Assembly: GCA_041600575.1 (NCBI GenBank)
Contig: JBFIJV010000001.1
Coordinates: forward strand, 33-64,032
Source of the DNA: Gammaproteobacteria bacterium
Lineage (GTDB): Bacteria > Pseudomonadota > Gammaproteobacteria > Eutrophobiales > Eutrophobiaceae
Length of the DNA: 64,000 nucleotides
Reading direction: 5' to 3'
Below the pieces are notes generated by a model. That model saw nothing but the letters and a program-made list of their open reading frames with translations. It had not been told where the DNA came from and did not search any database. The number at the start of each line of letters is the position of its first letter. Within the stretch, counting starts at the first letter, position 1. Below, in pieces: positions 28,510-45,614 of this stretch. Position numbers and translations under genes: made by a program.

Positions 28510-28543
28510 GCCACTTCTTCCCAGTCAAGATTGTGTTTTTTCA

Positions 28544-30256: not shown

Positions 30257-30310
30257 AGACTCCTCCTGTAGTTTGTTGTCATTTCCTTTTCCCTTTCATG
30301 CTTTAGCGAT

Positions 30311-30805
30311 CTACTTCTGCCAAGGTTTCTTTGCTGGAGTGGTTGCAGTGTTACTTGGTTCTGCAGCAGGCTGTGCTTCACCCAGTGCAGGCACGCTATG
30401 CATAACTGCGTCAACAGCCTTGTAACCTTTCACTTCATTCTGGTCGCCGTAATCTGCTGAGCTACGAACAGCCAGCTTGACTTGTATGGGTCGGTTATGA
30501 AGCTGCGCAGAGTCTTGCACCGCACCCAAACCTACTGCTGTGCAAATAGACTTCAAATCACGCTGTGCAATCTCTGCCGCTTTTGGGTTAGAGTTCCACA
30601 GGTTTAAATTAGTCCACACTTTTCGGTTGGCGAACTTGCCGCTTTGAATGGTGAGTTCCAACTTCAAATATTCGTTGTTAGAATTTGCCTGCGAAACTTT
30701 CTTTTCGCTGTTTGATATATAAGCTGAATACCAGCCTGCCGGTACTACATCAAACGACTCCGATTCTTGCACTTGTGATAAGTCGAATCCTGCCAAGTTT
30801 GTCAT
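30311..30805 (-). CDS. Putative ssDNA-binding protein (DUF669-like) partnered with Sak4
   Basis: Acidic or Pro-rich disordered C-terminal tail. Immediately downstream of the Sak4-like ATPase. Confidence 0.4.
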   Translation of the reverse strand: MTNLAGFDLSQVQESESFDVVPAGWYSAYISNSEKKVSQANSNNEYLKLELTIQSGKFANRKVWTNLNLWNSNPKAAEIAQRDLKSICTAVGLGAVQDSAQLHNRPIQVKLAVRSSADYGDQNEVKGYKAVDAVMHSVPALGEAQPAAEPSNTATTPAKKPWQK

Positions 30806-31527
30806 TAGTTATCTTCTCCTTGTGGTTTAGGATTTTGCGTTGCTGACGTGATTTTATTTACAATCATGCCAAGGTTGGGTTCTTCGAACTGATTCAAACA
30901 ACCGCTTCTATCTTTGCAGTTGTATTGCGGGTCAGCCGATGTTTGTAACCAACGAGTTGACACACCTTCGGGGTCTTGCTCCATGCGTAAAGCAAATACT
31001 TCATCAAACATGTATGGAATAGACTGTCCGAGTTTTGCGCCGGGCATCATTGGTTGGTATAAAATCATCCCTGACAATTCATCCTTTTCCTTCGCCATTT
31101 TCGCCGCCATATACACATGACGTTCGGGCAAGTCACGAAACGCACGTAACAAATCACCCATTTCCTCCTGCAGCTTTCCGTATGCTTGTCGCGGGTCGGC
31201 TGACTTTTTCTTTTCACTGGATAGCAATGCTTCTGCAATCTCGGTGATAGAATCGATGTTAACGAAATCATATTGTTTACCTTCCGCAGAATCTGCGAGA
31301 AAGGAATAGGCTTCATAAACCTCTTCAATATTGTTCACTGAAATAACTGGCAAGTCGTAGTCACGTAATGACATAAGTCCTGACTCGGCAGAAATAATAA
31401 TCGGGTTGCAGCCTTGTGGCGGCGTAGCACATAACGTGGTCTTTCCTGCGCCAGCCAATCCGTAAACTAATATCTTCACGCCTTGGTTTGTGACCGCGTT
31501 CTTTGTGCTTGATAACTGTATAGCCAT
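30805..31527 (-). CDS. Sak4-like RecA-fold ATPase (single-strand annealing/recombination)
   Basis: Walker A 'GLAGAGKTT' near the N-terminus. About 240 aa. Neighbourhood of SSB, nuclease and helicase. Confidence 0.6.
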   Translation of the reverse strand: MAIQLSSTKNAVTNQGVKILVYGLAGAGKTTLCATPPQGCNPIIISAESGLMSLRDYDLPVISVNNIEEVYEAYSFLADSAEGKQYDFVNIDSITEIAEALLSSEKKKSADPRQAYGKLQEEMGDLLRAFRDLPERHVYMAAKMAKEKDELSGMILYQPMMPGAKLGQSIPYMFDEVFALRMEQDPEGVSTRWLQTSADPQYNCKDRSGCLNQFEEPNLGMIVNKITSATQNPKPQGEDN

Positions 31528-32427: not shown

Positions 32428-33066
32428 TTACAGCAAACTGGTTGTTTTGAATACAGCAGTACCGACGATAGCTTCCTCCTCCATCATGGGTCGGGTTTTG
32501 TTAGGCATTGACTCGCTTTGGTGAGAAACGAATTCAGTTCCAGCGTCTTCCGAGTACAACCGAAGCGCAAACGAACCTTTAGCCTTGTTATAAAGAAGCA
32601 CTATATCGCCTGACGCATAATCATGGTCAGGATCGACATACACACAATCACCTTTCTCAACTGTAGGCGACAACATGTTGTCGTGCGCAATAATTGCAAA
32701 CGCATTACTCCCTATAGTGCTGGGACAAATCACATTATTATTGTTATTGGTGGCCATATACTTTTCTAGATACCCCGGAAGCTCCGAAAGTGTGAGCAGC
32801 GGAACATAAAAAACCCCCTCTGTTATATCCTTGAAATCATCATTAATGTTGCTTTCATCATCGACCAGCCACTTGAGTGGCGCACCGGTTAACTCGGCTA
32901 GTTTTTTAAGTTGTGCAATGTTTGGGTTTGTTCGAACAGAAGCGTTCGATTGTTCCCACAATGAGATTGCCGCACGCGTGCACCCCATTTGATCCGCAAT
33001 GTCCGTTTGCGAAACATCCGCTGCTTTACGAGCAGCTTTAATCCTTTGCCATAGCTCTGATGGCAT
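32428..33066 (-). CDS. cI: CI-like repressor: N-terminal XRE HTH plus C-terminal S24 (LexA-like) autopeptidase
   Basis: 'VSQTDIADQMGCTRAAISLWE' HTH. C-terminal S24-like segment with candidate Ser ('HDNMLSP') and Lys ('YNKAKG'). GAGAGG RBS before ATG 33066. The track's upstream extension to 33138 was rejected. Confidence 0.75.
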   Translation of the reverse strand: MPSELWQRIKAARKAADVSQTDIADQMGCTRAAISLWEQSNASVRTNPNIAQLKKLAELTGAPLKWLVDDESNINDDFKDITEGVFYVPLLTLSELPGYLEKYMATNNNNNVICPSTIGSNAFAIIAHDNMLSPTVEKGDCVYVDPDHDYASGDIVLLYNKAKGSFALRLYSEDAGTEFVSHQSESMPNKTRPMMEEEAIVGTAVFKTTSLL

Positions 33067-33130
33067 AACGAATACCTCTCTGGTTACATGGAACGTATTT
33101 ATTTCCTCTTTAAAGTCACTACAAAGCGAA

Positions 33131-33177
33131 ATTGACAACCGAAAAATAAAAGCGTAGCTTTCGGCCTGTCAATATAA
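33131..33177. promoter_or_regulatory. Divergent cI/cro switch: back-to-back promoters embedded in a long inverted repeat (operator)
   Basis: TTGACAACCGAAA ...15 nt... TTTCGGCCTGTCAA. Each arm supplies a TTGACA -35 for one direction. Rightward -10 is TAGCTT and leftward -10 is TTATTT. Confidence 0.5.
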
Positions 33178-33412: not shown

Positions 33413-33494
33413 CTTGTACACAAAGGGTAGACCCGAAGGTGGTCTTTGTCAAGGTTAGGTTGCATAGGATAGGGGGATATAGGTGGTAGAGGAC

Positions 33495-35810
33495 ATGAAG
33501 CAATACGCAGAATTATATATTAATAAGGGCTGGAAAGTGTTGCCACTACACAGTGTCAGCGATACCGGTAAATGCACATGCGGTGATGAAAAGTGTACAT
33601 CAGCCGGCAAACACCCCATCCACGATAAGCAGCTTTGTCCATCGGGCGTGCATAGCGCAAGCGACAATATCAATGTGATCTACAAGTGGCTTTCGAAGTA
33701 CCCTTTTATGAATATCGGAATTGCCACCGGGCAAGATTCGAACTTAACCGTGCTAGATGTGGACGGTCGCAAGGGCGGTATCGGGACAGTTGAGCATTTG
33801 TACGGGGATGATGGCGAAGACTTACTCGACACCTCAGAACTCGTTGTCAGAACCGGTGATGGGTTTCATTTGTTTTACAGCTACGACCCCATTGCAAAGA
33901 ACGGCAGTAACCGCATGGTCGGTGTAGACATACGCAGTACCGGCGGTTACATCGTCGCACCCCCATCACGACATGCCTCTGGCAAACAGTACGAATTTAT
34001 CGACGAAGAATACTTGGACGAAACAACCCAGGGCGCATTACCCCAATCAATCCTCAAGCTGTTGTCACAATCCAGCAATAGCACGAAGGTCGCTTCTTCA
34101 GCCACAGCATCCCAGCCCTCCCCGGCCAAACCAGCAATCCCTTTATCAGATACAGAAAAAGAAGACATAGCCGGCGCAATTAAACATATCCCGGCAGACG
34201 AACGCGACACATGGATTCGCGTGGGCATGGCATTACACAGCACTGGGGCGGGACACGAAGCCTTTGAGATTTGGGACACGTGGTCACAGACCACCAAAAG
34301 CGGTAATTACCGGTACAAGGACGCGCTGATTAATTGGCGTAGTTTCAAGGATGGCGACGTGACAATCGCCAGCTTGTTCGGGTTAGCGCAGGAACACGGT
34401 TACATGTACGCACCGCAGGCTGGTACGCGCATACAGTTACAGCAGTCTAGCGAAGAGCCGTCTAGCGAATACACAGCGGAAGAGCTGGACTTACAAGACC
34501 TGACTGGCGTAGGCCACAAGCGCAAAGCCATCCCGGCCAAGTTACTGCAGCTCAACGGCACCATGCAGGACATTATGAACCATATTTTACAAGCCTCAGT
34601 GAGACCTCAACCTGTGCTGGCGTTAGCCAGCACGCTGTCATGTTTCGGGACAATCATCGGTCGGCGTTATTCCACCGGGTACGGCGGTGAAGAAACACGC
34701 AGCAACGTGTTTGTCGTAGGTTTAGCACCCAGCGGCGCAGGTAAAGATATCACAATGAAGATGACCACCAAGATTTTAGAAGCCGGGAACCTGTTTGACC
34801 GCGTGGGCGCAAGCAAGATAGGCAGTGGCAGCGGGTTGCTGCATGACTTAGGGACGAATCACTGTCAGCAGTACCAGCTAGACGAATTTGGTTTGGCCTT
34901 ACAAAGCATGACCAGTTCAGGCAGTTCGCAGCACACGAAGGAAGTGATTAGTACGCTAATGGAATTGTACTCGTGCGCGGCAGGAACCTACCAAGGCGGC
35001 GCGTACGCCACCAAGCAGCGTGTGCGTATCGAGCAACCGCACTGTTGCGTATACGGCGTGAGCACGCCAGAGGAATATTACAAGGCATTTAACAGCGGGT
35101 TTGGTAACAACGGCTTTTTCGGGCGCTGGCTCGCGTTTGAAGTTATGGAAGATGTGCCGAAACGCCGCGTCCCGAAGGGCGCGGGGGATATTGATCCGCA
35201 GTTGGCCAAGCGGATTGAGACGTACGCGATGTACGAGAACATGCCAGTCAACGGCAACATGACGCATTACGTGCATGACGTGCCAATGACTCCGGATGCA
35301 GAACTCTTGTTTGATGGTTTTGCCGACTACGCAGAGCAGCAATCAAAGAGACACGAGTTGCGTGGTGATAGCGTGGGCACACGAATCTGGGCACGCGCTG
35401 TTGAGAACTCTCGAAAGCTAGCGCTTTTATGGGCGTGCAGTGAGCGAGCGAAAGACCCGGAAATTACCATTACCGCGATTGAGTGGGCGACAGCATTAAT
35501 CACCCATTTAGTTGAAGACCAAATTATCGCAATGGAGAACCATGTCTCCGATACCGAGAACGAATCACTCCACCAAATGTTAATGAATGTTATCTCGATA
35601 GGTGGGGCGCGAGGGATTCCAGCAGCACAATTTAAACGAAAATATGTACGCAAGTTAGGAGCAAGACGTTTCAACGAAATCATGCGGGAATTGATTGATT
35701 TGAACGTTATTGAAATGTTCAAAGTAAAGGGAGAGGTGAAAACACTGCTCGATAAGCCAGTAACCCGGTATCGACTAAGTGTGTACACACCGTCGGGGGA
35801 AGATAAGTGA
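33495..35810 (+). CDS. Bifunctional primase-polymerase (prim-pol) with a D5/P4-type helicase or NTPase C-terminal domain
   Basis: N-terminal 'VLDVDGRKGG', 'GGYIVAPPSRH' prim-pol motifs with a Cys4 cluster. Walker A 'GLAPSGAGKD'. A GTG at 33483 is an alternative start. Confidence 0.7.
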   Translation: MKQYAELYINKGWKVLPLHSVSDTGKCTCGDEKCTSAGKHPIHDKQLCPSGVHSASDNINVIYKWLSKYPFMNIGIATGQDSNLTVLDVDGRKGGIGTVEHLYGDDGEDLLDTSELVVRTGDGFHLFYSYDPIAKNGSNRMVGVDIRSTGGYIVAPPSRHASGKQYEFIDEEYLDETTQGALPQSILKLLSQSSNSTKVASSATASQPSPAKPAIPLSDTEKEDIAGAIKHIPADERDTWIRVGMALHSTGAGHEAFEIWDTWSQTTKSGNYRYKDALINWRSFKDGDVTIASLFGLAQEHGYMYAPQAGTRIQLQQSSEEPSSEYTAEELDLQDLTGVGHKRKAIPAKLLQLNGTMQDIMNHILQASVRPQPVLALASTLSCFGTIIGRRYSTGYGGEETRSNVFVVGLAPSGAGKDITMKMTTKILEAGNLFDRVGASKIGSGSGLLHDLGTNHCQQYQLDEFGLALQSMTSSGSSQHTKEVISTLMELYSCAAGTYQGGAYATKQRVRIEQPHCCVYGVSTPEEYYKAFNSGFGNNGFFGRWLAFEVMEDVPKRRVPKGAGDIDPQLAKRIETYAMYENMPVNGNMTHYVHDVPMTPDAELLFDGFADYAEQQSKRHELRGDSVGTRIWARAVENSRKLALLWACSERAKDPEITITAIEWATALITHLVEDQIIAMENHVSDTENESLHQMLMNVISIGGARGIPAAQFKRKYVRKLGARRFNEIMRELIDLNVIEMFKVKGEVKTLLDKPVTRYRLSVYTPSGEDK

Positions 35811-37392: not shown

Positions 37393-37950
37393 ATGAATCC
37401 AGAAAAAGCACTCAGCAGATTGACAGCAAAGACCGGCGGCCTTGATGTGAATGTGCGTTCAACTGACAACACGTCTCTCAGTGGTTCAGATATTGCGTAC
37501 GCCTTGGGCGGTCTTAACCAGTTTGAGTCAAATTTAATATTGTATAAGTATGCGCAGGCTGATGATTCGTTATATGCCAGGCTGTTGCCCGACTGGTACG
37601 AACGTGTGCGTGTTGCGTGTTTGCGCGAGGGCTGGGGTAAGCATAGGAAAATACCTGACAACAGGTTGGTGTTACTTGCTCAAGCAACACTGGATGAATT
37701 TGTGGGTGATAGTCTTTGCAGGAAATGCAATGGAATTGGATCTGTAAGAACCTTAGATAAGATAGAGGTGTGTAGGACATGTGAAGGGAATCGAATACAG
37801 GCGTGGTCGTCTGCGCGTAGAGCGCGAAGTTGTGCAATGGATAGCCATAACTTTCGCAAGCTATGGAAGACACGTTACCGTTCGACGCTTGGCCGTCTAA
37901 TCAATATAGAACAGTACGCGTTATCGGAGGTTAAAAGGAGGCTGGGTTAA
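37393..37950 (+). CDS. Zinc-finger protein. Possible Q-like late antiterminator
   Basis: CRKC-x15-CRTC zinc ribbon in the C-terminal half. Position matches lambdoid Q except for the inserted minus-strand block. Confidence 0.3.
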   Translation: MNPEKALSRLTAKTGGLDVNVRSTDNTSLSGSDIAYALGGLNQFESNLILYKYAQADDSLYARLLPDWYERVRVACLREGWGKHRKIPDNRLVLLAQATLDEFVGDSLCRKCNGIGSVRTLDKIEVCRTCEGNRIQAWSSARRARSCAMDSHNFRKLWKTRYRSTLGRLINIEQYALSEVKRRLG

Positions 37951-38119
37951 CAGGTTGTCAGTTGGTTGCACATTAAAAATATGAACCCTAGAAGATACTT
38001 TTTGATACTTACCGCACGTGACAATAAGTTGGGACAGGGTGGTCATCACTCCACAGCACCACAACCTTCCGAGGAAGACTTTTTTATGCTCTCAAGAATG
38101 AGCCTGTCCCGATTTAATT

Positions 38120-38668
38120 TTACCATATAATTTCAGTGGGTGAGTCATCGCCTTTGCTGGCTTTTAGTTTGTCCGTGACCATACGTGCAACGTCTTGATT
38201 AATTTTATCCATTGCAACAGCTTTGTCAGTGCAATAGAACTCATGCGTAAAGTCGTCACCATCTTTGCGTACACCCTTGTATACTTGCGAAGTCAAGTAA
38301 GTATCTCGCTCAATCGAGACATGAAATACATCAAGCAACAACAGCTCGTGGTGTGTTGACTTAAACACGGTCTTAAAATCCAGAGCTGCCGACATATAAT
38401 TACGGTACATCGTGGGAATTATCCTGCAATACTGCGTTCCAAATAAAGCACCAACACGAACCAATATCTTTCTATGCTTCACGTCTTTTGTGATGCAGTA
38501 TTCTTGCCCGAATCTTACGGGCGAGAACTCAACTGTAAACAAAGCACAACGTGTATTTAAATAATCTTCAAGACGCTGCGTGAAGTCTTTACCGATTCGG
38601 TCGTCACCGCTTCCCAAATAATGCTCCCACTTAGTGGACTCAGACCATCTGGGCTTGTCCAGTCTCAT
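38120..38668 (-). CDS. Hypothetical protein (182 aa). Start placed at the Met preceded by the conserved box
   Basis: Conserved hairpin, box and RBS sit before ATG 38668. The ORF-track start at 38752 would include the regulatory box in its coding region. Confidence 0.5.
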   Translation of the reverse strand: MRLDKPRWSESTKWEHYLGSGDDRIGKDFTQRLEDYLNTRCALFTVEFSPVRFGQEYCITKDVKHRKILVRVGALFGTQYCRIIPTMYRNYMSAALDFKTVFKSTHHELLLLDVFHVSIERDTYLTSQVYKGVRKDGDDFTHEFYCTDKAVAMDKINQDVARMVTDKLKASKGDDSPTEIIW

Positions 38669-38674
38669 AATAAT

Positions 38675-38723
38675 ATCTCCTCTGTTGGTTGTATGATGTA
38701 ATGGGTAACTTAAATACCCATTA
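38675..38723 (-). promoter_or_regulatory. Conserved box plus hairpin, copy 1
   Basis: Minus strand reads hairpin(TAATGGGTA...TACCCATTA)-CATCATACAACCAACAGAGGAGATattattATG. Confidence 0.5.
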
Positions 38724-38758
38724 GGATTGACTCTCTTTCGAGAGCCAATCACTAATGA

Positions 38759-39289
38759 CTACTCAGCTTTTAATTTAGCCAGTAACTTCAAGGTAGGTTT
38801 GCGACACGTCTTACCTTGTGCCGTTCGTGTGTCAACACGTTCCTGTAAGTATGCGATAACCGCTTGCTTACCCACGAAACCCTCGTCAAGCATTTCTTCC
38901 AACCGCTTCGCAGATAGGCCAACGCCCAACTCCACTTCGTCACGCTTAACGTCTTCGCTTGATTTGCTGACAACAGGTTGCTCTGTCTTTTCGATTGCTA
39001 GTTCCATTGTACTAATCTCCTCTTTTGGTTGTGATTGATGTTCGACTGACTGTAACAGTTTGATTGCGCCTTGGGTAATTCCATTGCGCTCACCAACTGA
39101 CAACAGACTGTCAATTGCTTTCCTTAATGGGTAGTCAAGTGGTTTGCAATTGCGGTATTCTGCAATTGGAATCTTCTTGATTGCCACATCAGGATTGACG
39201 ACAACTAAACGTACGAACTTGTGCCCCTTAAAGGCGACACATGTTCGTATGCCATCGTTGAAGTGATAACGACACACTTCGGCTTGCAT
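38759..39289 (-). CDS. Hypothetical protein (176 aa). The in-frame internal start at 39007 carries its own conserved box, so there may be two products
   Basis: The TAATG-like overlap with the upstream gene supports the long form. The full box and RBS before Met 39007 support a nested 82-aa C-terminal product. Confidence 0.45.
   Translation of the reverse strand: MQAEVCRYHFNDGIRTCVAFKGHKFVRLVVVNPDVAIKKIPIAEYRNCKPLDYPLRKAIDSLLSVGERNGITQGAIKLLQSVEHQSQPKEEISTMELAIEKTEQPVVSKSSEDVKRDEVELGVGLSAKRLEEMLDEGFVGKQAVIAYLQERVDTRTAQGKTCRKPTLKLLAKLKAE
39013..39040 (-). promoter_or_regulatory. Conserved box copy 2, internal to ORF 38759-39289
   Basis: CATCAATCACAACCAAAAGAGGAGATtagtacaATG, in frame. Confidence 0.45.
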
Positions 39290-39290
39290 A

Positions 39291-40061
39291 TTACTTGCCT
39301 CCCATGAGTCTAGCAGTTACGTGCTTGGTCGCTGATTTCTTAAATGATGCTTTCAGACCACGCATAGTTTTGCTGCATACAACGTAACGATTAGTGCCAC
39401 CATTGCCGAATATCTTGGCATACACTTTTTCAACGTTATAAGATCTCCCATCACCGGGAATGAGTAACGCTAAGTGAAAATGGTTGTCATCAAGTTTCTT
39501 GCCGCTTACCACAACACGTTGTCCGTTCTTGTATTCAACGCTCAGACCACGCAATTGCTCTTTAAGTTTATGCAAGTTAAAGGTGATGCTTATTCCTTCC
39601 TCGCTAAAACGCACATCATCAATAGACTTGACCGACTGCACATAATTTCCACGATTAATGCATCGGGCAATGATACGGCCAAGGTTATCAACTTCCTTGC
39701 CATAACCGGACTCATCACCCCATTCAGCCTCATAAATAGCATGAGCGTTGCGGCTAATCTTGGCCAAGTATCTGTACATAGTATTTCCCATAAACCGGGG
39801 GAATATATGTTTTCTTCCTCTTGGCTTGCGTGACTCAAGCAAAATACGCGCCCTTCTGGTAATCGCTAAATCATGTAGCGTTGTAATTACACTCCATATC
39901 GACTCTGAATTACAATCCGGTCTGCCACCACGAGACTTCGTTTCATCGAAGTAAGCGATGTAAGTTTCTGGACTGTAATCGTAAGCCGCTTTCAGTAACG
40001 ACTTAGGTAGCGTATTAGCTGCCGGGTTAATAACCATGTCTATAACTTCTGCTCTTTCCAT
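39291..40061 (-). CDS. Protein with a HUH-like 'HFHLAL' motif and downstream Tyr. Possible rolling-circle Rep or relaxase-like nuclease
   Basis: 'NHFHLALLIPG' fits the HUHUUU pattern, followed by 'EKVYAKIF'. Conserved box before ATG 40061. Confidence 0.35.
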   Translation of the reverse strand: MERAEVIDMVINPAANTLPKSLLKAAYDYSPETYIAYFDETKSRGGRPDCNSESIWSVITTLHDLAITRRARILLESRKPRGRKHIFPRFMGNTMYRYLAKISRNAHAIYEAEWGDESGYGKEVDNLGRIIARCINRGNYVQSVKSIDDVRFSEEGISITFNLHKLKEQLRGLSVEYKNGQRVVVSGKKLDDNHFHLALLIPGDGRSYNVEKVYAKIFGNGGTNRYVVCSKTMRGLKASFKKSATKHVTARLMGGK

Positions 40062-40065
40062 AACA

Positions 40066-40152
40066 TAATCTCCTCTGTATTGGTTGTGGATTGTTTGGCG
40101 GTAGAGTACCCACCACACAACGTACTGTGATGTTCGTAGAACTCACATCACA
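40066..40152 (-). promoter_or_regulatory. Conserved box plus hairpin, copy 3
   Basis: hairpin(GTGATGT..ACATCAC)...CAAACAATCCACAACCAATACAGAGGAGATtatgttATG. Confidence 0.5.
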
Positions 40153-40172
40153 ATACGTTGTAGGGTTTGCAC

Positions 40173-40367
40173 TTATGAAAATTCATACTCAGGGTGATTG
40201 ACCTCGACCTTGTAACCAAGGCTCCGGATATGCCCCAGCGCATCTTTTGTGAGCGTCTTCGTGTTAGTTAATCGAGCAAAGACAAACGCATCTTTGTTAT
40301 CGGGGTAAAATCTTGCTTCACCATAAGTGTATTTGACTGTGACCTTGACTGTCATTTCGTTATTCAT
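40173..40367 (-). CDS. Small hypothetical protein (64 aa)
   Basis: Conserved box and hairpin immediately upstream. Confidence 0.45.
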   Translation of the reverse strand: MNNEMTVKVTVKYTYGEARFYPDNKDAFVFARLTNTKTLTKDALGHIRSLGYKVEVNHPEYEFS

Positions 40368-40371
40368 AACG

Positions 40372-40417
40372 TAATCTCCTCATAATAGGTTGGTGGATGT
40401 TGGTAGTAATACCTACC
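40372..40417 (-). promoter_or_regulatory. Conserved box plus hairpin, copy 4
   Basis: hairpin(GGTAG..CTACC)-CAACATCCACCAACCTATTATGAGGAGATtacgttATG. Confidence 0.5.
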
Positions 40418-40462
40418 AGTGAGAGGACTCTTGCGAATCCCCTCTAGCTAGGTACTAGCTTG

Positions 40463-41731
40463 TTACATGTCTACCATGTCGTGAGCATGGATGACTTCAC
40501 CAATATCTGGTGAACCTTGTGGCAACGACTTGTCACCACATGACAACCACACCACCGGATAGTCCGGCACTGTCGAAGGTATGTCATTGCTAGAAACGTA
40601 CAGGTCAGTGATATAGATAAAACAATCAGGCCGAATACCCTTCTTGGCAACATATTCAAACGCCGGTTTCAAACAAGTACCGCCTCGACCACTATACTTA
40701 AAGGTCAAGTCTTCGCCTTGTTCGAACTCGTGAACACAGTCCTCGTTAACATCACCATAATCGTTATAAATAACGGTTATTTTCCGAGGTCGTGTATCGT
40801 CTGCGATGGCCTGTATTTCGGAGGCAGATTGCTGCAACTGCTCGTCAGATACTGAACCACTGGTGTCAACTGCCAGAACTAATTCCCCTGTTTCTTCACC
40901 ATCTGGTGAAGGTAGGAGAACGTCGTCCAGTGAGTTACGGCGATTGAACCGTCTATATGACCAGTCGTCACGTGCTGGCTGCATGAAGTCACGCAGCAGG
41001 CTTCGCCAGTCCTGTTGAGGTTTCAATAGCTCGTCAATTTCTCCAGTGATACCACCTTTGCTATTGCCGGATAAACGTTCAGCCATATCAGCTTGACGAA
41101 TGTCAAGGTCATCAACTGCTTGGACTGGAACGTTACCGTTCAAGTCTTTAGTACCTACGACCTTGCCAGATTTCGGCTTGTCACCGTCGGCAATCTTAGG
41201 AGCGTCTATTACGCCACCGCAACCGCCGGGGTCGCCACCATCTGACAATCCGTTGTCACCAGATTGACTATTGTCACCTCCGCCTTCACTCTCACCTTCA
41301 CCCTCACCCTCACCTTTCGGTGGTTTTTCCATGTGGATGATTTTGTATATGTCCTCAACGGACATACCGCTGAATTTAGGTTCAAGCATGGCGCTAGCTG
41401 GTAAAGCACAACCCGATTTCTTACAAATCGGATTGATTGCGTAGTCACATGCCACGTTCCAATCATGTGGATCACGTTCGCCACGTCTAAGCGTATGCTT
41501 AAATGCTACGTGGGCAATTTCATGAGCCAACACACCAGCAAATTCATCAACCGGTAAATTTGAAACAAATTCACGGTTGTAATAAATCTTTACGCCATCG
41601 GTTGCACATGTATCAAAATCATTACGTTCTACCAAAGGTAGTTTCATAATGAGCGAACCAAAAAACGGCTGGCCTGTCATGAGTCGAATTCGAGCACGTT
41701 CTATATGCTTTTTTAACTCTGAATCATTCAT
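40463..41731 (-). CDS. Zincin metallopeptidase-like plus von Willebrand A (vWA, MIDAS) protein. Partner of the MoxR ATPase
   Basis: 'LAHEIAHVAFKH' HExxH. Gly/Asp/Glu-rich linker. 'LVLAVDTSGSV' DxSxS MIDAS. Start set at the Met preceded by the conserved box. Confidence 0.65.
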   Translation of the reverse strand: MNDSELKKHIERARIRLMTGQPFFGSLIMKLPLVERNDFDTCATDGVKIYYNREFVSNLPVDEFAGVLAHEIAHVAFKHTLRRGERDPHDWNVACDYAINPICKKSGCALPASAMLEPKFSGMSVEDIYKIIHMEKPPKGEGEGEGESEGGGDNSQSGDNGLSDGGDPGGCGGVIDAPKIADGDKPKSGKVVGTKDLNGNVPVQAVDDLDIRQADMAERLSGNSKGGITGEIDELLKPQQDWRSLLRDFMQPARDDWSYRRFNRRNSLDDVLLPSPDGEETGELVLAVDTSGSVSDEQLQQSASEIQAIADDTRPRKITVIYNDYGDVNEDCVHEFEQGEDLTFKYSGRGGTCLKPAFEYVAKKGIRPDCFIYITDLYVSSNDIPSTVPDYPVVWLSCGDKSLPQGSPDIGEVIHAHDMVDM

Positions 41732-41737
41732 TTTGTA

Positions 41738-41782
41738 AATCTCCTCTATGTTGGTCTGTGGATGGTGGTAGAAAATATCTAC
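41738..41782 (-). promoter_or_regulatory. Conserved box plus hairpin, copy 5
   Basis: hairpin(GGTAGATATTTTCTACC)-ACCATCCACAGACCAACATAGAGGAGATttacaaaATG. Confidence 0.5.
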
Positions 41783-41886
41783 CAACATGCTGTCGGGATT
41801 AACTGACAACATGTTGCTAAATACTCGCATTAAAAAGTTGGGGAGAGTACGCAGTCCTAAGACTACGCACCCTCCACCACAGGTGG

Positions 41887-42738
41887 TTACGACTTGATAC
41901 CCAGTTGCTTATCAATATCAGCCAATAATGCTTTAGCATCATTAGCTGCCTCGATTCTGCGTTCTGGATAATTTCGTAATTCGCTTGCTGTACGGCTACC
42001 GATTGACTCCATCAATCGTTTTGCCATATCGTTAAGCAATGGGTCGTTGTTGATATTCAACAAAGGCAGGATTTCAGCCAGTTCCTTGATATTCCCTATA
42101 AGTGAATCTCTAAAAATTGACTCAACGTCCTGCAGTTTATCAACTGCATGACTGACAGCTTTATGTAGACGCTGCCATACCTCGGCCAATGCTGCAGTTT
42201 CTGCAGATTTCACCTTCGACTCAACGCTATCAGCTATTGCTGATATTTCATCGTCATTCAGTGAAACACGAAAGTCACCGCCATCAGGCACTGGCAATAA
42301 TTCAACGTTGAAGTTGAATTTACTGGCAACATCTTGTGGGTAGTCTGCATCTTTATACAGACCGCCTAAGATGCGCTGAGCCATTGACTTCAATTCAGGA
42401 TATTTAGTAATGAAATTACTAACAGCCGAATCAAACTCATATTGCCATTTCCTCATACCGTCCCGGTATGCCTCGAATCCCACAATAGGCAATATTCTTT
42501 GCCCATTGTTGTCCCAAGGCAGTGTGTGCTCATAATGAAAATCACGAACCTGATTGACTACCTGACCGATACGACGAAAGTCGTCACCCTGAATGAGTAG
42601 CTTGTTGAATTTACCAACGTCACCAGTTGCAGAGTTGCTAACAGCAACCTGTTGTGTCGCTTTCTTATCGTATTTACGAGCTGTCCATTGACTAATGGAT
42701 AGCTGAACAAGCATTGCTTTCTCGTTTAATTTTGACAT
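41887..42738 (-). CDS. Hypothetical protein (283 aa) between the MoxR and vWA genes
   Basis: Conserved box and hairpin upstream. Confidence 0.5.
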   Translation of the reverse strand: MSKLNEKAMLVQLSISQWTARKYDKKATQQVAVSNSATGDVGKFNKLLIQGDDFRRIGQVVNQVRDFHYEHTLPWDNNGQRILPIVGFEAYRDGMRKWQYEFDSAVSNFITKYPELKSMAQRILGGLYKDADYPQDVASKFNFNVELLPVPDGGDFRVSLNDDEISAIADSVESKVKSAETAALAEVWQRLHKAVSHAVDKLQDVESIFRDSLIGNIKELAEILPLLNINNDPLLNDMAKRLMESIGSRTASELRNYPERRIEAANDAKALLADIDKQLGIKS

Positions 42739-42742
42739 GTCA

Positions 42743-42791
42743 AAATCTCCTCTATGTTGGTTTGTGGATGGTGATGTATTGAAAATACATC
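42743..42791 (-). promoter_or_regulatory. Conserved box plus hairpin, copy 6
   Basis: hairpin(GATGTATTttcaAATACATC)-ACCATCCACAAACCAACATAGAGGAGATtttgacATG. Confidence 0.5.
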
Positions 42792-42836
42792 GGGCTGCCC
42801 ACTACCTAAGTAGTGAGCAGTATCGATATATTCTCG

Positions 42837-43892
42837 CTAGAGAATTACGTCTTGATTTTCTACACACCAATTGACGTATGCTGTGGACTTAACAAAGTCC
42901 TCATACTGTCCGTTAGCCTTTTGTTTATCGGTCATTGTCTGGACTGAAAACACTTCGAACTCTTTGTCCAATCTTTTCAGGTACTGAATAAATTGGCTGA
43001 AATTGTTCTTGTCAGCGACATTAGCAATAGCTCCAGCTATTGCGTAAAGTGCTCCCATGCTGCCGTCGTCTTCTGGAATCTGAGCACCATTCGGGTCTCT
43101 CGCAATTTCATCGACATTTGGCAGCTTGCCCCAGAGACTAAGAAAAGCAGTTAAATTAACTGCTTGTTCTTCACCGACGCACCCCGATAAAGCCAAGAAT
43201 TGGTCTTTATCATCGTAGCCAAGTCCAAGCTCAGTCCCTGCATAATCCCAGTTTCTGGGATTAGGGTTGACCTTGGCAGACCTGTCGAATTGGCAAAAAG
43301 CAGGACTATTGAAGCGTAAATACGCTACAATCTGTGTTGGTATGTTGTGCTGAATAGCCCAAACACACCAACGGTCTAAGTCAGCATTGACTTCGACCTC
43401 TGATAGTCGATCAGACATTGCATTTAATGTCTTCTCGACACCAGAACCATGCTCGATGCCATTCGTTGCTAAGACAACGAACGTATCTTCTGGTAATCGG
43501 TAGTGACTACCGATACCTCGTTCATTGCTATTACCTAATTGCATTAGCACCTTTTGCATCCCTCGATTGGCCTGACCAAATTCATCTATGAAAAGAATTT
43601 GCCTTGGCTTGCTTGGTAGGATTGCGTTAGCAACCATGTCCACCGTTTTGTTGTCCCTGTCGTAGACAGGTAAAGCAAAATCGGTAGCCTCGTGCTGACT
43701 CGGACGAATCGTAATCACTTCGTCGTAGTGTTTAGAAACACTAGGAAGCGAATCAATCATCGCCGTTTTGCCGACACCCGGTTGCCCTTTCATGACAATC
43801 GTTTTTGCCCAACGCTTCGTCTGGTTGTAACTGTCCATACGAGCACCAAGAAAAGCAGGCATGTCATATATTGATTTAATTATCTGTTGCAT
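42837..43892 (-). CDS. MoxR-family AAA+ ATPase
   Basis: Walker A 'GQPGVGKT' and Walker B 'ILFIDEF'. First gene of the block, behind the conserved box. Confidence 0.7.
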   Translation of the reverse strand: MQQIIKSIYDMPAFLGARMDSYNQTKRWAKTIVMKGQPGVGKTAMIDSLPSVSKHYDEVITIRPSQHEATDFALPVYDRDNKTVDMVANAILPSKPRQILFIDEFGQANRGMQKVLMQLGNSNERGIGSHYRLPEDTFVVLATNGIEHGSGVEKTLNAMSDRLSEVEVNADLDRWCVWAIQHNIPTQIVAYLRFNSPAFCQFDRSAKVNPNPRNWDYAGTELGLGYDDKDQFLALSGCVGEEQAVNLTAFLSLWGKLPNVDEIARDPNGAQIPEDDGSMGALYAIAGAIANVADKNNFSQFIQYLKRLDKEFEVFSVQTMTDKQKANGQYEDFVKSTAYVNWCVENQDVIL

Positions 43893-43898
43893 TTGTGT

Positions 43899-43947
43899 AT
43901 CTCCTCATAATAGGTTGGTGGATAGTGCGAAATACGAATGTATTTCA
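43899..43947 (-). promoter_or_regulatory. Conserved box plus hairpin, copy 7
   Basis: hairpin(GAAATACattcGTATTTC)-GCACTATCCACCAACCTATTATGAGGAGATacacaaATG. Confidence 0.5.
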
Positions 43948-44330
43948 GTAAAGGCAAAAGCGAACTTGCGTTCGCCTTCACCTTTGGTGAAACACACTCA
44001 CCACGCCACAAGGAACACAAAGTGTTCCCTGTGACATAACCATTAAGAGGGAGATTATTTGGTGACAGGTTTACGTTCTAATCAGCCTCTAGCTGGACGC
44101 AGATTTGACCTGTCGAACCCCGACTCTACCGTCCTAATTACTAACGGTAGCCGTTACGCTGTGCCGACTCCGCAAACGAGAACTTCGTTCGCCTTATCTT
44201 TCGTGGCACTGAATGCTTCGCAGCAATCAGCAAGCTGAACCAACAGCTAATCAGTCGTCACCAACTCACTGGTTTCACCAGTTTCGGCAATTTCAGCATC
44301 CTGCTGAGCCGAGTTGGAATTGTGTATCTA

Positions 44331-44391
44331 AGTCCTTAATCTTTTTTTTCCCTTTTTCACTTTGTTCAAAAGGAAAAAAAAGTTAAGGACT
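44331..44391. repeat. Long AT-rich palindrome (about 20-bp arms, 20-nt loop)
   Basis: AGTCCTTAATCTTTTTTTTCC ...loop... GGAAAAAAAAGTTAAGGACT. Confidence 0.6.
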
Positions 44392-44488
44392 AATAGGTTG
44401 GGGAATGATAGTGGAGACAAGTTACACTTGTCAAGGTAGACTTGCAGGCCGTTATTCTCGATTGTACCAATCGAAAGTCTGGCAACGC

Positions 44489-44533
44489 GTTTCACGTGAA
44501 ACCCTTGACACACGCGAGTGATTATGGATAATA
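44489..44533 (+). promoter_or_regulatory. Sigma70-like rightward promoter with an abutting perfect 14-bp palindrome. Candidate late promoter
   Basis: GTTTCACGTGAAAC (44489-44502), TTGACA (44505-10), 17 nt, ATAATA (44528-33). Confidence 0.5.
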
Positions 44534-44562
44534 TCAATAATAGTATTGTAGACCTCCTCAAA

Positions 44563-44595
44563 AGCCAGACTGCTAAAGCAGTCAGGCTTTTTTTA
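44563..44595 (+). terminator. Rho-independent terminator 30-60 nt downstream of the candidate late promoter
   Basis: AGCCAGACTGC-taaa-GCAGTCAGGCT followed by T7. Confidence 0.6.
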
Positions 44596-44697
44596 TGCCC
44601 ATCACAAAGTGATGAACAACTGACAACCGGTTGCTCAACGTTCAAGGTCATAGACCTTGTTTGGTGGGACATACGCACAGCGTGCGTTGGTTTTAAA

Positions 44698-44739
44698 AAC
44701 CTATGGTTATTAAAACACTTGAACTTATAACCTATGGTT
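44698..44739. promoter_or_regulatory. Two copies of the palindromic site AACCTATGGTT, 31 bp apart. The second lies within TTATAACCTATGGTTATAA. Operator-like
   Basis: Direct reading. Lies in the leader upstream of the first late gene. Confidence 0.4.
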
Positions 44740-44954
44740 ATAACAGGGCTGGCATAGCATGTCCTGTGCTGTGTATCTCCTTATAAATCAAGGAGATAGG
44801 GTGGTGCGTACTAGGTTCATTGCGTTCGAGAGTGTCTACACACAGCACGTTTTCGTGTATGCAAACGCGCTCTGAGCGCGGGGGCTAACACCACTGTATA
44901 TATAGAACTCACAAAAAATATTTCACAAAATTTTAAACCTTTGTAAAGGAAAAC

Positions 44955-45614
44955 TTGCACATGGCACTATCTCCATCTGACCAGCGACGACTTGTACGAA
45001 AACTGGAAGGACGATCTCGCGCCGAGAAAGAAGCAATCATTGGCGCTACTTACGAAGCGATGAATAAGGGCATAAAAGACCCGATAATCGCTGGTATCAC
45101 CCGGGCTAAAGAAAAGATTGCGATTGCCGCTGGCTCAAGCCCTGATAATGTAAATTACAATGGTATTCAGTACGGTAACGGGGGATGGAATGTCCCGGTT
45201 AATGTGCCGGGGCGAAGAATTTATGCGTCACAATTACCGGCTGTGTTTGGAAATCTTCCACAATTTAAAAATGGATATTTTGACACGCCGGCAAGCACGC
45301 GTACCGCGTTTGTTCCAAAAAGAACTGAGGCTGATGCATGGGTGCACGGACTCAGACAATATGAAGAAGGACTTAAAAATATCGAAGGGCAATTAGTTCA
45401 AGGCAAAGATGATCAATGGAAGTCAGCACAAAAAGAAATACGACTCGCTGACCTGAGAAAAAACAGCCAGGAACTTTTGTTCAATCAAAAGCCTCGCGGC
45501 TTTCAGCCGCAACAAAAAGGCATGTTCTCTCAATTGAATGGCGGCAATAACCCTATCAATCAAATTAGTCAGGGCTTCGATAAGAAGTTCGACATGGCGA
45601 GCAAGTTACGTTAA
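44955..45614 (+). CDS. Hypothetical protein (219 aa), first gene of the late operon
   Basis: ORF. ATG 44961 is an alternative start. Confidence 0.5.
   Translation: MHMALSPSDQRRLVRKLEGRSRAEKEAIIGATYEAMNKGIKDPIIAGITRAKEKIAIAAGSSPDNVNYNGIQYGNGGWNVPVNVPGRRIYASQLPAVFGNLPQFKNGYFDTPASTRTAFVPKRTEADAWVHGLRQYEEGLKNIEGQLVQGKDDQWKSAQKEIRLADLRKNSQELLFNQKPRGFQPQQKGMFSQLNGGNNPINQISQGFDKKFDMASKLR

What the first reader, a model, noticed from the sequence alone, without database searches (positions are those of the whole stretch)
40463..43892. Three-gene module of MoxR AAA+ ATPase, an unknown 283-aa protein, and a zincin (HExxH) plus vWA (MIDAS) protein
The ATPase is 42837-43892, with Walker A GQPGVGKT and Walker B LFIDEF. 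The partner is 40463-41731 and combines an HEIAHxxxxH metallopeptidase-like domain, a Gly/Asp/Glu-rich linker and a DTSGS MIDAS vWA domain. A conserved middle gene, 41887-42738, has no recognisable motifs. MoxR-vWA pairs are chaperone-like or remodelling systems such as RavA-ViaA. In a temperate phage accessory block, co-regulated by the conserved boxes, the module could act in virion maturation, anti-defence, or as a defence or abortive system. None of these is established.
Basis: partly seen in the sequence, partly recalled or inferred. Interest (0 to 1): 0.66.

Follow-up and report, generated by a model that had tools for sequence, protein, structure and literature searches.

The report
Phage AAA+ ATPase, DUF3150, protease-vWA trio
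The three genes are real and form a fixed operon (a MoxR-like ATPase, a DUF3150 protein and a zinc-protease/vWA protein) that recurs in hundreds of phage contigs and on conjugative plasmids, so it is a new example of a widespread module whose function is still unknown.

Summary
On the minus strand lie a 351-aa MoxR-like AAA+ ATPase (42837-43892), a 283-aa protein (41887-42738) and a 422-aa protein (40463-41731). The last joins an intact HExxHxxxxH zincin to a vWA domain with a complete MIDAS motif.

The middle protein does belong to a family. It is a divergent member of Pfam DUF3150, with about 10,000 representatives at 50% identity.

The trio is a fixed operon. Every one of 93 DUF3150 loci with enough sequence carries all three genes, 91 of them in the same order. 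It also sits on conjugative Burkholderiales megaplasmids.

The ATPase plus zincin-vWA pair without DUF3150 corresponds to N4 gp24/gp25, core genes of N4-like phages. It also occurs in jumbo, rV5-like and Thermus phages.

The trio usually heads an early operon, divergent from the terminase genes or ahead of replication genes. No match was found in the PADLOC-DB v2.0.0 (2023) defence library, and no solved homologue exists for DUF3150.

My best reading (about 0.4) is an early-acting machine that helps the element establish itself. MIDAS would capture a target, the ATPase remodel it and the zincin cut it. Plasmid carriage argues against a role in virion assembly. Core status in virulent phages argues against a defence role.

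It is a new member of a known but uncharacterised kind.

The parts
42837..43892 (-). MoxR-like (AAA_5 / midasin-related) AAA+ ATPase, 351 aa. Walker A is at nt 43764-43787 and Walker B at nt 43581-43598.
   Evidence: Found as an ORF and matches phrog_1297 at 1.4e-50. Pfam AAA_5 scores 22.5 bits against a cut-off of 22, and AAA_3 scores 22.9 against 27. G36, P38, G39, G41, K42, D103, N144, R162 and R213 are invariant in 13 orthologues. The best solved match of the profile is the midasin AAA ring, at 2.8e-31.
41887..42738 (-). DUF3150-family protein, 283 aa. It is the most conserved of the three: 42-43% identity to marine and bacterial orthologues, against 26-35% for the other two proteins.
   Evidence: Pfam DUF3150 matches the window protein only at E=0.008, but 18 of 42 close homologues hit it, the best at 1.5e-7. 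GenBank annotates the MinM2 orthologue as DUF3150. There are 9,959 representatives at E<=1e-3. The AF2 model has pLDDT 86 and pTM 0.80. It has no PDB fold match and matches only uncharacterised phage proteins in BFVD.
40463..41731 (-). Zincin-linker-vWA protein (DUF2201_N + DUF2201, N4 gp25-like), 422 aa. HExxHxxxxH is at nt 41495-41524. The acidic Gly-rich linker is at about nt 41222-41314. MIDAS DTSGS is at nt 40853-40867, MIDAS Thr352 at nt 40676-40678 and MIDAS Asp376 at nt 40604-40606.
   Evidence: Pfam scores are 145.8 and 64.8 bits, and Peptidase_M48 scores 22.3 bits against a cut-off of 20.3. It matches phrog_1314 at 1.6e-96. The catalytic and MIDAS residues are invariant. The AF2 model has pLDDT 85. 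Foldseek matches the C-terminal domain to integrin I, vWF-A, Ro60 and NorD vWA domains, and the N-terminal domain to selecase. The profile hits an M48 peptidase, 3c37, at 4e-4.
43897..43927 (-). Leader box plus Shine-Dalgarno sequence ahead of the ATPase gene (CACTATCCACCAACCTATTATGAGGAGATAC).
   Evidence: Repeat family D1 and pattern searches.
42743..42773 (-). Leader box plus Shine-Dalgarno sequence ahead of the DUF3150 gene.
41737..41767 (-). Leader box plus Shine-Dalgarno sequence ahead of the zincin-vWA gene. It fixes the start codon at 41731.
42781..42835 (-). Intergenic stem-loop between the ATPase and DUF3150 genes.
   Evidence: RNA fold of -33.4 kcal/mol, z -6.4.
41773..41879 (-). Two intergenic stem-loops between the DUF3150 and zincin-vWA genes. 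The first, at 41842-41875, is terminator-like.
   Evidence: RNA fold of -58.2 kcal/mol, z -7.0, and the terminator scan.
43936..44039 (-). Two long stem-loops in the 5' leader just upstream of the ATPase gene.
   Evidence: RNA fold of -69.1 kcal/mol, z -8.8.
44405..44434 (-). Sigma-70-like promoter candidate for the leftward block (TTGACA-18-TATCAT, 11 of 12 positions).
   Evidence: Consensus scan only. The overall count of such sites is no higher than in shuffled sequence.
38120..40367 (-). Four further genes of the same leftward block, carrying the same box. Their starts are 40367, 40061, 39289 (with an internal start at 39007) and 38668. They are not part of the conserved trio.
   Evidence: Boxes found. 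No Pfam, PHROG or PADLOC hits. They are unrelated to the genes downstream of the trio in other phages.

Best explanation
Shown: the three genes encode one conserved module, and they are inherited together by phages and conjugative plasmids.

Inferred: the three products form a ternary machine. The ATPase would form a MoxR/midasin-type ring that docks the zincin-vWA protein. The vWA MIDAS site would capture an acidic residue of a target protein. ATP hydrolysis would remodel that target, and the tethered M48/minigluzincin-like zincin would cut it.

Inferred: DUF3150 never appears without the pair, while the pair appears without DUF3150. So DUF3150 is most likely a dedicated adaptor or specificity subunit, or else the primary client. 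Its invariant exposed loop P149-x-P151-x3-D155-F-R-V is a candidate MIDAS ligand.

Inferred from position: the machine acts early after the element enters a cell, on a host protein or a DNA-bound protein. Its role would be establishment, meaning host takeover or counter-defence, and not virion building.
For: 1. Domains and catalytic residues are intact and invariant, and the folds agree.

2. The trio is a strict unit. All 80 IMG/VR loci and 13 further loci with enough sequence carry the three genes on one strand, 91 of the 93 in the same order. All three proteins are mutually orthologous across the window, marine phages, cyanophage MinM2, a bacterial contig and plasmids. Nothing else in the neighbourhood is conserved.

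3. The trio is on conjugative Burkholderiales megaplasmids. There it lies in one same-strand array with SSB, a primase, an orphan N6-methylase and the PRTRC cassette. A Lar restriction-alleviation gene lies nearby on the opposite strand, and the type IV secretion genes follow.

4. The position is early. The trio is divergent from the terminase operon in three unrelated packaging lineages and heads operons that continue into HTH, RecT, SSB, DnaB and PolA genes. In Thermus phage phiFa the pair lies about 2.7-5.8 kb beyond the 5' long terminal repeat. N4 gp24/gp25 are middle transcripts and belong to the 14 core genes of N4-like phages (PMC4193335).

5. In the window, the block has its own promoter-like site and a uniform arrangement of hairpin plus leader box.
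Against: - No experiment exists for any member of this module.
- No target is identified, and the three-protein complex is inferred from synteny only. No multimer model could be run.
- Early position and plasmid neighbours are guilt by association. An early or middle position is equally compatible with a replication-linked role.
- In this window the trio is not next to the replication genes. It lies between a Q-like gene and the terminase, the classic accessory slot.
- Iyer et al. 2021 (PMC7824862) proposed virion assembly for the same pair in jumbo phages.
- Some orthologues have DD in place of DE in Walker B.
Confidence: 0.4

Rival explanations
1. It is a replication or recombination accessory, working like Cdc48-Wss1/SprT. 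The machine would strip or cleave proteins bound or crosslinked to the incoming or replicating DNA, such as nucleoid proteins, terminal or pilot proteins, or a relaxase.
For: The trio is adjacent to PolA, PD-(D/E)XK, SNF2, Rad52, RecT, SSB, DnaB and primase genes in phages, a bacterial contig and plasmids. N4 gp24/gp25 lie in the middle (replication) region (PMC4193335). There is a weak Pfam SprT-like hit at E=0.0017.
Against: All three proteins are acidic (pI 4.6-6.3), and no DNA-binding domain was detected. The SprT hit is below threshold, and the zincin is closer to M48/selecase. The trio accompanies several unrelated replication systems. In this window it is separated from the replication genes.
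Confidence: 0.2
2. It is a virion-assembly chaperone and protease. The MoxR-vWA pair would help assemble or proteolytically process structural proteins, as proposed for jumbo phages and as shown for Acidianus two-tailed virus p618/p892.
For: Iyer et al. 2021 make this proposal for the same MoxR plus metallopeptidase-vWA pair (PMC7824862). Kaur et al. 2020 (PMC7159879) cite the precedent of the archaeal virus tail. In several phages the trio is next to the terminase operon, although divergent from it.
Against: The orthologous trio is on conjugative plasmids that build no virions. It is transcribed away from the structural operons and together with early or replication genes. In N4 the genes are middle, not late (PMC4193335).
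Confidence: 0.12
3. It is a defence, abortive-infection or superinfection-exclusion system, expressed by the lysogen or plasmid against other phages.
For: The element is temperate, and the slot between the Q-like gene and the terminase often holds morons. MoxR-vWA ternary systems are predicted conflict systems (PMC7159879). The trio is carried on plasmids and prophages.
Against: There is no significant PADLOC hit. The best is DolB at E=0.0048 and 14 bits. The pair is a core gene set of strictly virulent N4-like phages and occurs in jumbo, rV5-like and Thermus phages (PMC4193335). The trio sits in early lytic operons of phages with PolA and no visible lysogeny genes.
Confidence: 0.1
4. It is a dedicated maturation or cofactor-insertion chaperone of the NorQ/NorD, CbbQ/CbbO or CobS/CobT type. 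DUF3150 would be the client that is matured or metallated.
For: Characterised MoxR-vWA pairs mostly mature one client that is encoded nearby (PMC9976466, PMC13036017). NorD appears among the fold matches. DUF3150 is always co-encoded with the pair. Public records sometimes label such genes cobS or cobT.
Against: DUF3150 has no recognisable metal site or enzyme fold. The invariant zincin has no role in the known insertion systems. The pair works without DUF3150 in many phages. No CobN-like partner is present.
Confidence: 0.1

Closest known systems
Phage N4 gp24 (AAA ATPase) and gp25 (vWFA protein), the Schitoviridae core pair (phrog_1297 and phrog_1314)
   Same: They are orthologous to the window's ATPase and zincin-vWA proteins. 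Against Vibrio N4-like phage SBP1 the E-values are 4e-18 and 1e-53. The gene order is the same, the HExxHxxxxH and MIDAS motifs are the same, and the function is unknown in both.
   Different: N4-like phages have no DUF3150 gene between or beside the pair. They are virulent, whereas the window is a temperate phage in which the module has its own leftward operon.
MoxR plus metallopeptidase-vWA pair of group 2.2 jumbo phages (Iyer et al. 2021, PMC7824862)
   Same: The domain architecture is the same, and jumbo phages are among the tblastn hits of the window protein.
   Different: That paper described a two-gene pair and proposed a virion-assembly role. DUF3150 and plasmid carriage were not part of the description.
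Annotated trio in Synechococcus phage MinM2 and Planktothrix phages Pag-Yong1 and Pra-JY27
   Same: The three families are the same and in the same order. GenBank labels them MoxR family ATPase, DUF3150 domain-containing protein and VWA-like domain-containing protein.
   Different: Small ORFs are inserted between the three genes. Identity is only 26-30%. No function is assigned.
NorQ-NorD, CbbQ-CbbO and RavA-ViaA (characterised MoxR-vWA chaperone pairs)
   Same: All pair an AAA+ ring with a MIDAS-bearing vWA adaptor encoded next to it. NorD appears among the fold matches.
   Different: Their vWA partners have no protease domain. They serve known respiratory or carbon-fixation clients. RavA has extra LARA and helical domains that are absent here. 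The window ATPase does not reach the Pfam AAA_3 threshold.
Midasin (Rea1)
   Same: It is the best solved match of the ATPase profile. It also couples AAA_5-type modules to a MIDAS domain that grips an acidic residue of its substrates.
   Different: Midasin is a single giant eukaryotic polypeptide with six AAA modules. It has no protease and acts in ribosome biogenesis.
ArdC, and SprT/Wss1 with Cdc48 (zincins of mobile elements and of DNA-protein crosslink repair)
   Same: All involve a zincin protease deployed by mobile elements or working with an AAA+ ATPase. This comparison is by analogy only.
   Different: No ssDNA-binding domain is present. The Pfam SprT-like hit is below threshold, and the fold is nearer to M48/selecase.

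Membership tests
MoxR-class AAA+ ATPases (Pfam AAA_3 / AAA_5 clade) | Walker A GxxGxGK[ST] and Walker B hhhhDE | tested here: met
   GQPGVGKT is at aa 36-43 and ILFIDE at aa 99-104. G36, P38, G39, G41, K42 and D103 are invariant in 13 orthologues.
MoxR-class AAA+ ATPases (Pfam AAA_3 / AAA_5 clade) | Sensor-1 Asn, the Arg of the S/D-R-F/L motif, the sensor-2 'PR' motif and the TDxxGxP segment after strand 2 | tested here: met
   N144, R162 and R213 are invariant, and P212, D71 and P75 nearly invariant. The functional role assigned to each residue comes from my own knowledge of the family, not from a structure.
MoxR-class AAA+ ATPases (Pfam AAA_3 / AAA_5 clade) | Score above the Pfam gathering threshold | tested here: inconclusive
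   AAA_3 scores 22.9 bits against 27, so it is not met. AAA_5 scores 22.5 against 22, so it is barely met. NCBIfam gives no hit. The profile's best solved match is the midasin AAA ring, at 2.8e-31.
MoxR-class AAA+ ATPases (Pfam AAA_3 / AAA_5 clade) | Helix-2 insert and pre-sensor-1 hairpin seen in a structure | not tested
MoxR-class AAA+ ATPases (Pfam AAA_3 / AAA_5 clade) | A vWA/MIDAS partner in the same operon | tested here: met
DUF2201 / N4 gp25-like zincin-vWA proteins (PF13203 + PF09967) | Both Pfam domains above threshold, in N-to-C order | tested here: met
   145.8 bits against a cut-off of 23.2, and 64.8 bits against 26.4.
DUF2201 / N4 gp25-like zincin-vWA proteins (PF13203 + PF09967) | Zincin HExxH with a third ligand | tested here: met
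   H70, E71, H74 and H79 are invariant in 44 sequences and kept in phage, plasmid and N4-like orthologues. Fold matches to selecase have probability 0.97-0.98.
DUF2201 / N4 gp25-like zincin-vWA proteins (PF13203 + PF09967) | Complete MIDAS motif, DxSxS...T...D, on a vWA fold | tested here: met
   D289, S291, S293, T352 and D376 are invariant. Foldseek matches integrin I, vWF-A1, Ro60 and NorD domains with probability 0.9-0.99, though E-values are only 0.016-0.2.
DUF3150 (PF11348) | Score above the Pfam gathering threshold (24.9 bits) | tested here: not met
   The window protein scores 16 bits, E=0.008.
DUF3150 (PF11348) | Membership through close homologues | tested here: met
   18 of 42 homologues at 40-49% identity hit DUF3150, the best at 1.5e-7. 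P0256 scores 40 bits. The MinM2 and Cupriavidus orthologues are annotated as DUF3150. The top BFVD fold hit is a DUF3150 protein, with TM 0.83 and E=3e-20.
RavA-ViaA | RavA architecture (AAA+ plus triple-helical plus LARA domains), a ViaA partner without a protease, and a link to LdcI, Frd or Nuo | tested here: not met
   No such domains were found. The partner carries a zincin, and the context is that of a phage or plasmid. The definition of the RavA architecture comes from the literature titles and from my own knowledge.
Known anti-phage defence systems (PADLOC-DB v2) | Significant match of any component to a defence-system model | tested here: not met
   The only hit is DolB at E=0.0048 and 14 bits for the ATPase. 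The other two proteins have none.
Head-maturation (prohead protease / scaffold) module | Location inside the structural operon, and a prohead-protease fold or family | tested here: not met
   The trio is on the opposite strand to the terminase-portal-capsid genes. The protease is M48/selecase-like. Orthologues occur on plasmids.
Cobaltochelatase CobS/CobT(/CobN) | A CobT-type vWA subunit and a CobN partner | tested here: not met
   No CobT or CobN family hit was found in Pfam or NCBIfam. The vWA protein carries a zincin instead.

The most novel reading that the evidence does not exclude
The ATPase-DUF3150-zincin/vWA trio would be a so far unrecognised, very widespread counter-defence or host-takeover protease machine shared by phages and conjugative plasmids. 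DUF3150 would act as the specificity subunit that presents a particular host immune or nucleoid protein to the MIDAS site, for ATP-driven remodelling and cleavage. The two-gene version in N4-like, jumbo and rV5-like phages would do the same with other adaptors.
Probability: 0.25. Interest if true: 0.75.

Novelty: new member of a known kind. Interest (0 to 1): 0.45.

Why it matters
The ATPase plus zincin-vWA pair is one of only 14 core genes of N4-like phages, and it recurs in jumbo, rV5-like and Thermus phages. After more than fifteen years of annotation it still has no function.

This analysis adds three points that make the question easier to test:
- A third protein, DUF3150, is an obligate partner in a large clade of about 10,000 sequence clusters.
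- The same trio is carried by conjugative plasmids, which makes a virion-specific role unlikely.
- The trio sits at the front of early operons.

If the module proves to be a targeted protease that helps incoming DNA establish itself, it would be a new and very common class of phage and plasmid effector.

A practical point also follows. PHROG 1314 labels the zincin-vWA family 'HNH endonuclease', and that wrong name is spreading through phage genome records.

Tried and rejected
- Nucleotide search of the module against 50,697 phage records found no match, so the phage has no sequenced close relative there.
- Single-sequence searches of all three proteins against PDB sequences found nothing useful. 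A profile of DUF3150 against PDB gave only noise, the best being an HMG box at E=0.01.
- I looked for domain fusions of DUF3150 among the top 150 of 9,959 representatives. Only short unannotated extensions turned up.
- I tested whether the four genes downstream in the window belong to the module. They have no homology to the genes downstream of the trio in 80 viral loci, so they were rejected.
- I annotated the two genes most often found downstream in marine phages. Nothing came of it.
- I looked for a DUF3150 homologue in an N4-like locus and for extra copies in the window. There were none.
- An Rfam scan of 37900-45100 gave only chance-level miRNA and snoRNA hits. A tRNA scan found nothing.
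- A genome-contig scan gave only 6 loci, all MAG contigs that look viral, so it said little about hosts.
- Literature searches for DUF3150, DUF2201, COG3864, TM0930 and vWA anti-defence found no functional study.
- A cobaltochelatase reading was rejected: there is no CobN or CobT, and a zincin is present.

Full report
**1. What is in the window**

The window is almost the whole of a 64,069-bp phage contig (contig length). Its map is as follows:
- Tail genes lie at 1-23423 (+).
- An integrase lies at 23862-24791 (-).
- A leftward recombination block holds a helicase, a Cas4-like exonuclease and a Sak4-like protein at 26923-31527.
- A CI-like repressor lies at 32428-33138 (-).
- A primase (33483-35810), a RuvC-like resolvase and a weak Q-like protein (37393-37950) lie on the + strand.
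- A leftward block of seven genes occupies 38120-43892.
- A gap of about 1 kb without genes follows, at 43893-44954.
- Small and large terminase and head genes run from 44955 (+).

No tRNA gene is present. The element is therefore a temperate phage, and the finding lies between the Q-like gene and the packaging genes.

**2. Checking the observation**

The ATPase is 351 aa.
- It has GQPGVGKT at aa 36-43 and ILFIDE at aa 99-104.
- It matches phrog_1297 at 1.4e-50.
- It matches Pfam AAA_5 at threshold (22.5 bits against 22) but stays below the AAA_3 threshold (22.9 against 27).
- In an alignment of 13 orthologues, the Walker A residues, D103, N144, R162 and R213 are invariant. The TDxxGxP segment typical of MoxR-type proteins is present.
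- A profile of that alignment finds the midasin AAA ring as the best solved relative, at 2.8e-31. Cdc48/p97-type ATPases follow far behind.
- 'MoxR-like, AAA_5/midasin-related' is therefore a fair name.

The partner protein starts at 41731, not at the first ATG of the ORF (41830).
- The GAGGAG site lies 7 nt upstream of 41731.
- The public gene call is 422 aa.
- It matches DUF2201_N at 2.5e-42 and the DUF2201 VWA-like domain at 1.1e-17. Peptidase_M48 scores just above threshold.
- In 44 homologues at 34-71% identity, H70, E71, H74 and H79 (HExxHxxxxH) are invariant. So are D289, S291, S293, T352 and D376, which make up the five-residue MIDAS motif.
- The same motifs are kept in plasmid, cyanophage, marine-phage and N4-like orthologues.
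- The AlphaFold model has mean pLDDT 84.7, and only the acidic Gly-rich linker is disordered.
- Its C-terminal domain matches integrin I, vWF-A1, Ro60 and NorD vWA domains. Its N-terminal domain matches selecase, a minimal M48/M56-like zincin. Probabilities are 0.9-0.99, although E-values are only 0.016-0.2.
- A sequence profile also finds an M48 peptidase, at 4e-4.

The middle protein does belong to a family.
- Pfam DUF3150 scores only 16 bits on the window sequence.
- However, 18 of 42 close homologues hit DUF3150, and its orthologues in GenBank are annotated as DUF3150.
- The best viral fold match is a DUF3150 protein, with TM 0.83.
- An exhaustive profile search finds 9,959 representatives at 50% identity with E<=1e-3, and 4,130 with E<=1e-30. 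Almost all are single-domain proteins of 275-330 aa.
- The model is confident (pLDDT 86, pTM 0.80). It shows a small N-terminal sheet, a long antiparallel helical hairpin (85-127 and 162-203) and a C-terminal helical bundle.
- It matches nothing in the PDB.

**3. The trio is a fixed unit in phages and plasmids**

A pattern scan of IMG/VR found 509 viral contigs that encode a relative of the middle protein. I examined the best 80.
- Every locus with enough sequence on the relevant side carries the ATPase immediately upstream and the zincin-vWA gene immediately downstream, on the same strand.
- One locus has a changed order.

Thirteen further loci all carry the trio, again with one order variant. 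They come from metagenomes, MAG contigs, a 459-kb bacterial contig, cyanophage MinM2 and two plasmids.

All three proteins are mutually orthologous across these sources. DUF3150 is the best conserved of the three.

Clustering of the flanking genes shows that nothing else is conserved with the trio. The four genes that follow it in the window have no relatives downstream of the trio elsewhere.

The same trio lies on conjugative megaplasmids of Burkholderia, Cupriavidus, Ralstonia and Variovorax. The DUF3150 gene is found on 62 plasmid records and the zincin-vWA gene on 90. In pBMC401 the trio is part of one long same-strand array:
- The array holds SSB, a primase, an orphan N6-methylase, the PRTRC ParB/ThiF cassette, the trio and then the VirB type IV secretion genes.
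- A Lar restriction-alleviation gene lies nearby on the opposite strand.

**4. The pair without DUF3150**

The zincin-vWA protein has relatives in 719 phage records. These include:
- N4-like Schitoviridae;
- jumbo phages of 250-350 kb;
- rV5-like myoviruses;
- Thermus phage phiFa.

In those I inspected, the ATPase is nearby but no DUF3150 homologue is found.

This pair is N4 gp24/gp25. Its function has been listed as unknown since 2009 (PMC2784036). It is counted among the 14 core genes of N4-like phages and is transcribed as middle genes (PMC4193335).

Iyer et al. 2021 noticed the same MoxR plus metallopeptidase-vWA pair in jumbo phages and proposed a virion-assembly role (PMC7824862).

Many GenBank records call the protein 'HNH endonuclease', copying the label of phrog_1314. 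That label is wrong.

**5. Position and expression signals**

In three unrelated packaging lineages, the trio is transcribed divergently from the terminase operon. The lineages have Terminase_3, Terminase_6 with a P22-type portal, and the window's own type.

In several contigs it heads a long operon that continues into HTH, RecT, SSB, DnaB, PolA, PD-(D/E)XK and SNF2 genes. In phiFa the pair lies about 2.7-5.8 kb beyond the 5' long terminal repeat. This is the position of early genes.

In the window, the block has several expression signals.
- A good sigma-70-like site lies at 44434-44405 (11 of 12 positions). The overall number of such sites is no higher than in shuffled sequence.
- Each gene is preceded by one or more strong stem-loops, with z-scores from -4.2 to -8.8.
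- After the stem-loops comes an unstructured C/A-rich box that ends in GAGGAGAT, 6-7 nt before the ATG.
- Seven of the eight GAGGAGAT copies in the 64 kb lie in this block.
- The longer box has 5 copies where 0.02 are expected.
- A relative at about 70% nucleotide identity has the same layout of hairpin plus box before each gene.

They are translation-initiation leaders, probably combined with RNA processing or stabilising hairpins. That last point is inferred by analogy with phage early operons and was not tested.

**6. How it most likely works**

Shown:
- The ATPase motifs, the zincin site and the MIDAS site are all intact.
- The three genes are strictly co-inherited.
- The trio is carried by plasmids.
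- It sits in an early or middle position.
- It does not match models of known defence systems.

Inferred, from what is established for MoxR-vWA pairs such as NorQ-NorD and for midasin:
- The ATPase ring docks the vWA protein.
- The MIDAS site grips an acidic residue of a target.
- ATP hydrolysis remodels the target, and the tethered zincin cuts it.

Because DUF3150 never occurs without the pair while the pair occurs without it, DUF3150 is most likely a dedicated adaptor or specificity subunit, or else the client. Its invariant loop PxPxxxDFRV (149-158) has lower model confidence than its surroundings. That loop is a candidate MIDAS ligand.

Phages and plasmids share the module, and it is placed where early genes lie. 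I therefore favour a role in establishment in a newly entered cell, meaning host takeover or counter-defence. My confidence is about 0.4.

**7. Rivals**

- A replication-linked, Cdc48-Wss1-like role on DNA-bound proteins fits the neighbourhood equally well. It lacks any DNA-binding signal, and all three proteins are acidic.
- Virion assembly is hard to reconcile with plasmid carriage and with transcription away from the structural genes.
- A defence or abortive-infection role is hard to reconcile with core status in virulent phages and with the absence of PADLOC hits.
- A chelatase-like maturation role, with DUF3150 as the client, does not explain the invariant protease.

**8. Novelty and verdict**

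The finding is real and correctly delimited. It is a new and rather divergent member of a widespread module that is already annotated but uncharacterised. The closest ATPase relatives outside one sister contig share only 27-28% identity.

I did not find three points stated in the searchable literature:
- the obligate three-gene unit that includes DUF3150;
- its presence on conjugative plasmids;
- its consistent early position.

These points sharpen the question, but they do not answer it. Interest is moderate.

Noticed in passing
window 38675-44040, minus strand; also L096 8600-12640: Every gene of the leftward block is preceded by strong stem-loops (z -4.2 to -8.8). After these comes a C/A-rich unstructured box ending in GAGGAGAT, 6-7 nt before the ATG. 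Seven of the eight GAGGAGAT copies in the window are in this block. A relative at about 70% identity keeps the same layout. It resembles the processing or stabilising hairpins of phage early operons.
   Followed up: partly
phrog_1314; GenBank records H1-H29, H73-H77, H82, H86, H90, H94 and others: The zincin-vWA (DUF2201, N4 gp25-like) family is labelled 'HNH endonuclease' in PHROGs. That name, and in one record 'putative anti-sigma factor', has been copied into many phage genome records. No HNH domain is present.
   Followed up: yes
window 43893-44954: This is a gap of about 1 kb without convincing genes, between the divergent leftward block and the packaging operon. It holds back-to-back promoter-like sites (minus strand 44434-44405, plus strand 44505-44532) and a bidirectional terminator-like hairpin (44568-44583). 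It is 66% identical to the same region of L096. It is a likely regulatory region and may hold the cos or pac site. No Rfam family matches it.
   Followed up: partly
window 38120-40367, minus strand: Four further genes of the block have no Pfam, PHROG or PADLOC match. Their starts, corrected by the boxes, are 40367, 40061, 39289 and 38668. They have no relatives downstream of the trio in other phages. A box at 39015-39032 implies an internal in-frame start at 39007, inside the 176-aa ORF.
   Followed up: partly
window 37393-38120: The weak Q-like antiterminator gene (phrog_127, 1.2e-7, C-terminal part only) converges on the leftward block. If late transcription started just after this gene, it would have to run antisense through all seven genes to reach the terminase. 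That could shut the block off late in infection. This was not tested.
   Followed up: no
L096 8610-8777 and L097 2343-2510: The closest relative carries an extra 55-aa gene, with the same leader box, directly upstream of the ATPase gene. The window lacks this gene.
   Followed up: no
L017 and L093: These are the only two order variants among 93 trio loci. L017 has DUF3150-ATPase-zincin/vWA, and L093 (a Tannerella MAG) has ATPase-zincin/vWA-DUF3150.
   Followed up: no
L095 (pBMC401, record 9570-37000) and L007: On Burkholderiales megaplasmids the trio lies a few kb downstream of the PRTRC cassette, which has ParB-like, ThiF/E1-like and small ubiquitin-like components. This raises the possibility of a link between protein tagging and the AAA+/vWA/protease machine. 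No PRTRC genes accompany the trio in phages.
   Followed up: no
bioRxiv 10.1101/285403: Klebsiella and Salmonella multidrug-resistance plasmids are reported to carry DUF3150 genes linked to cobT/vWF-like genes. This suggests that DUF3150 also partners other AAA-vWA pairs. The plasmid record could not be retrieved here.
   Followed up: partly
BFVD hit S5YZA3 (Mycobacterium phage Dylan): An uncharacterised mycobacteriophage protein shares the DUF3150 fold weakly (E=5e-4, TM about 0.36). I did not check whether it has ATPase and vWA neighbours.
   Followed up: no
window 26923-31527, minus strand: A leftward recombination module holds a helicase (phrog_16), a Cas4-domain exonuclease (phrog_1990) and a Sak4-like annealing protein (phrog_124). 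It is separate from the trio.
   Followed up: no
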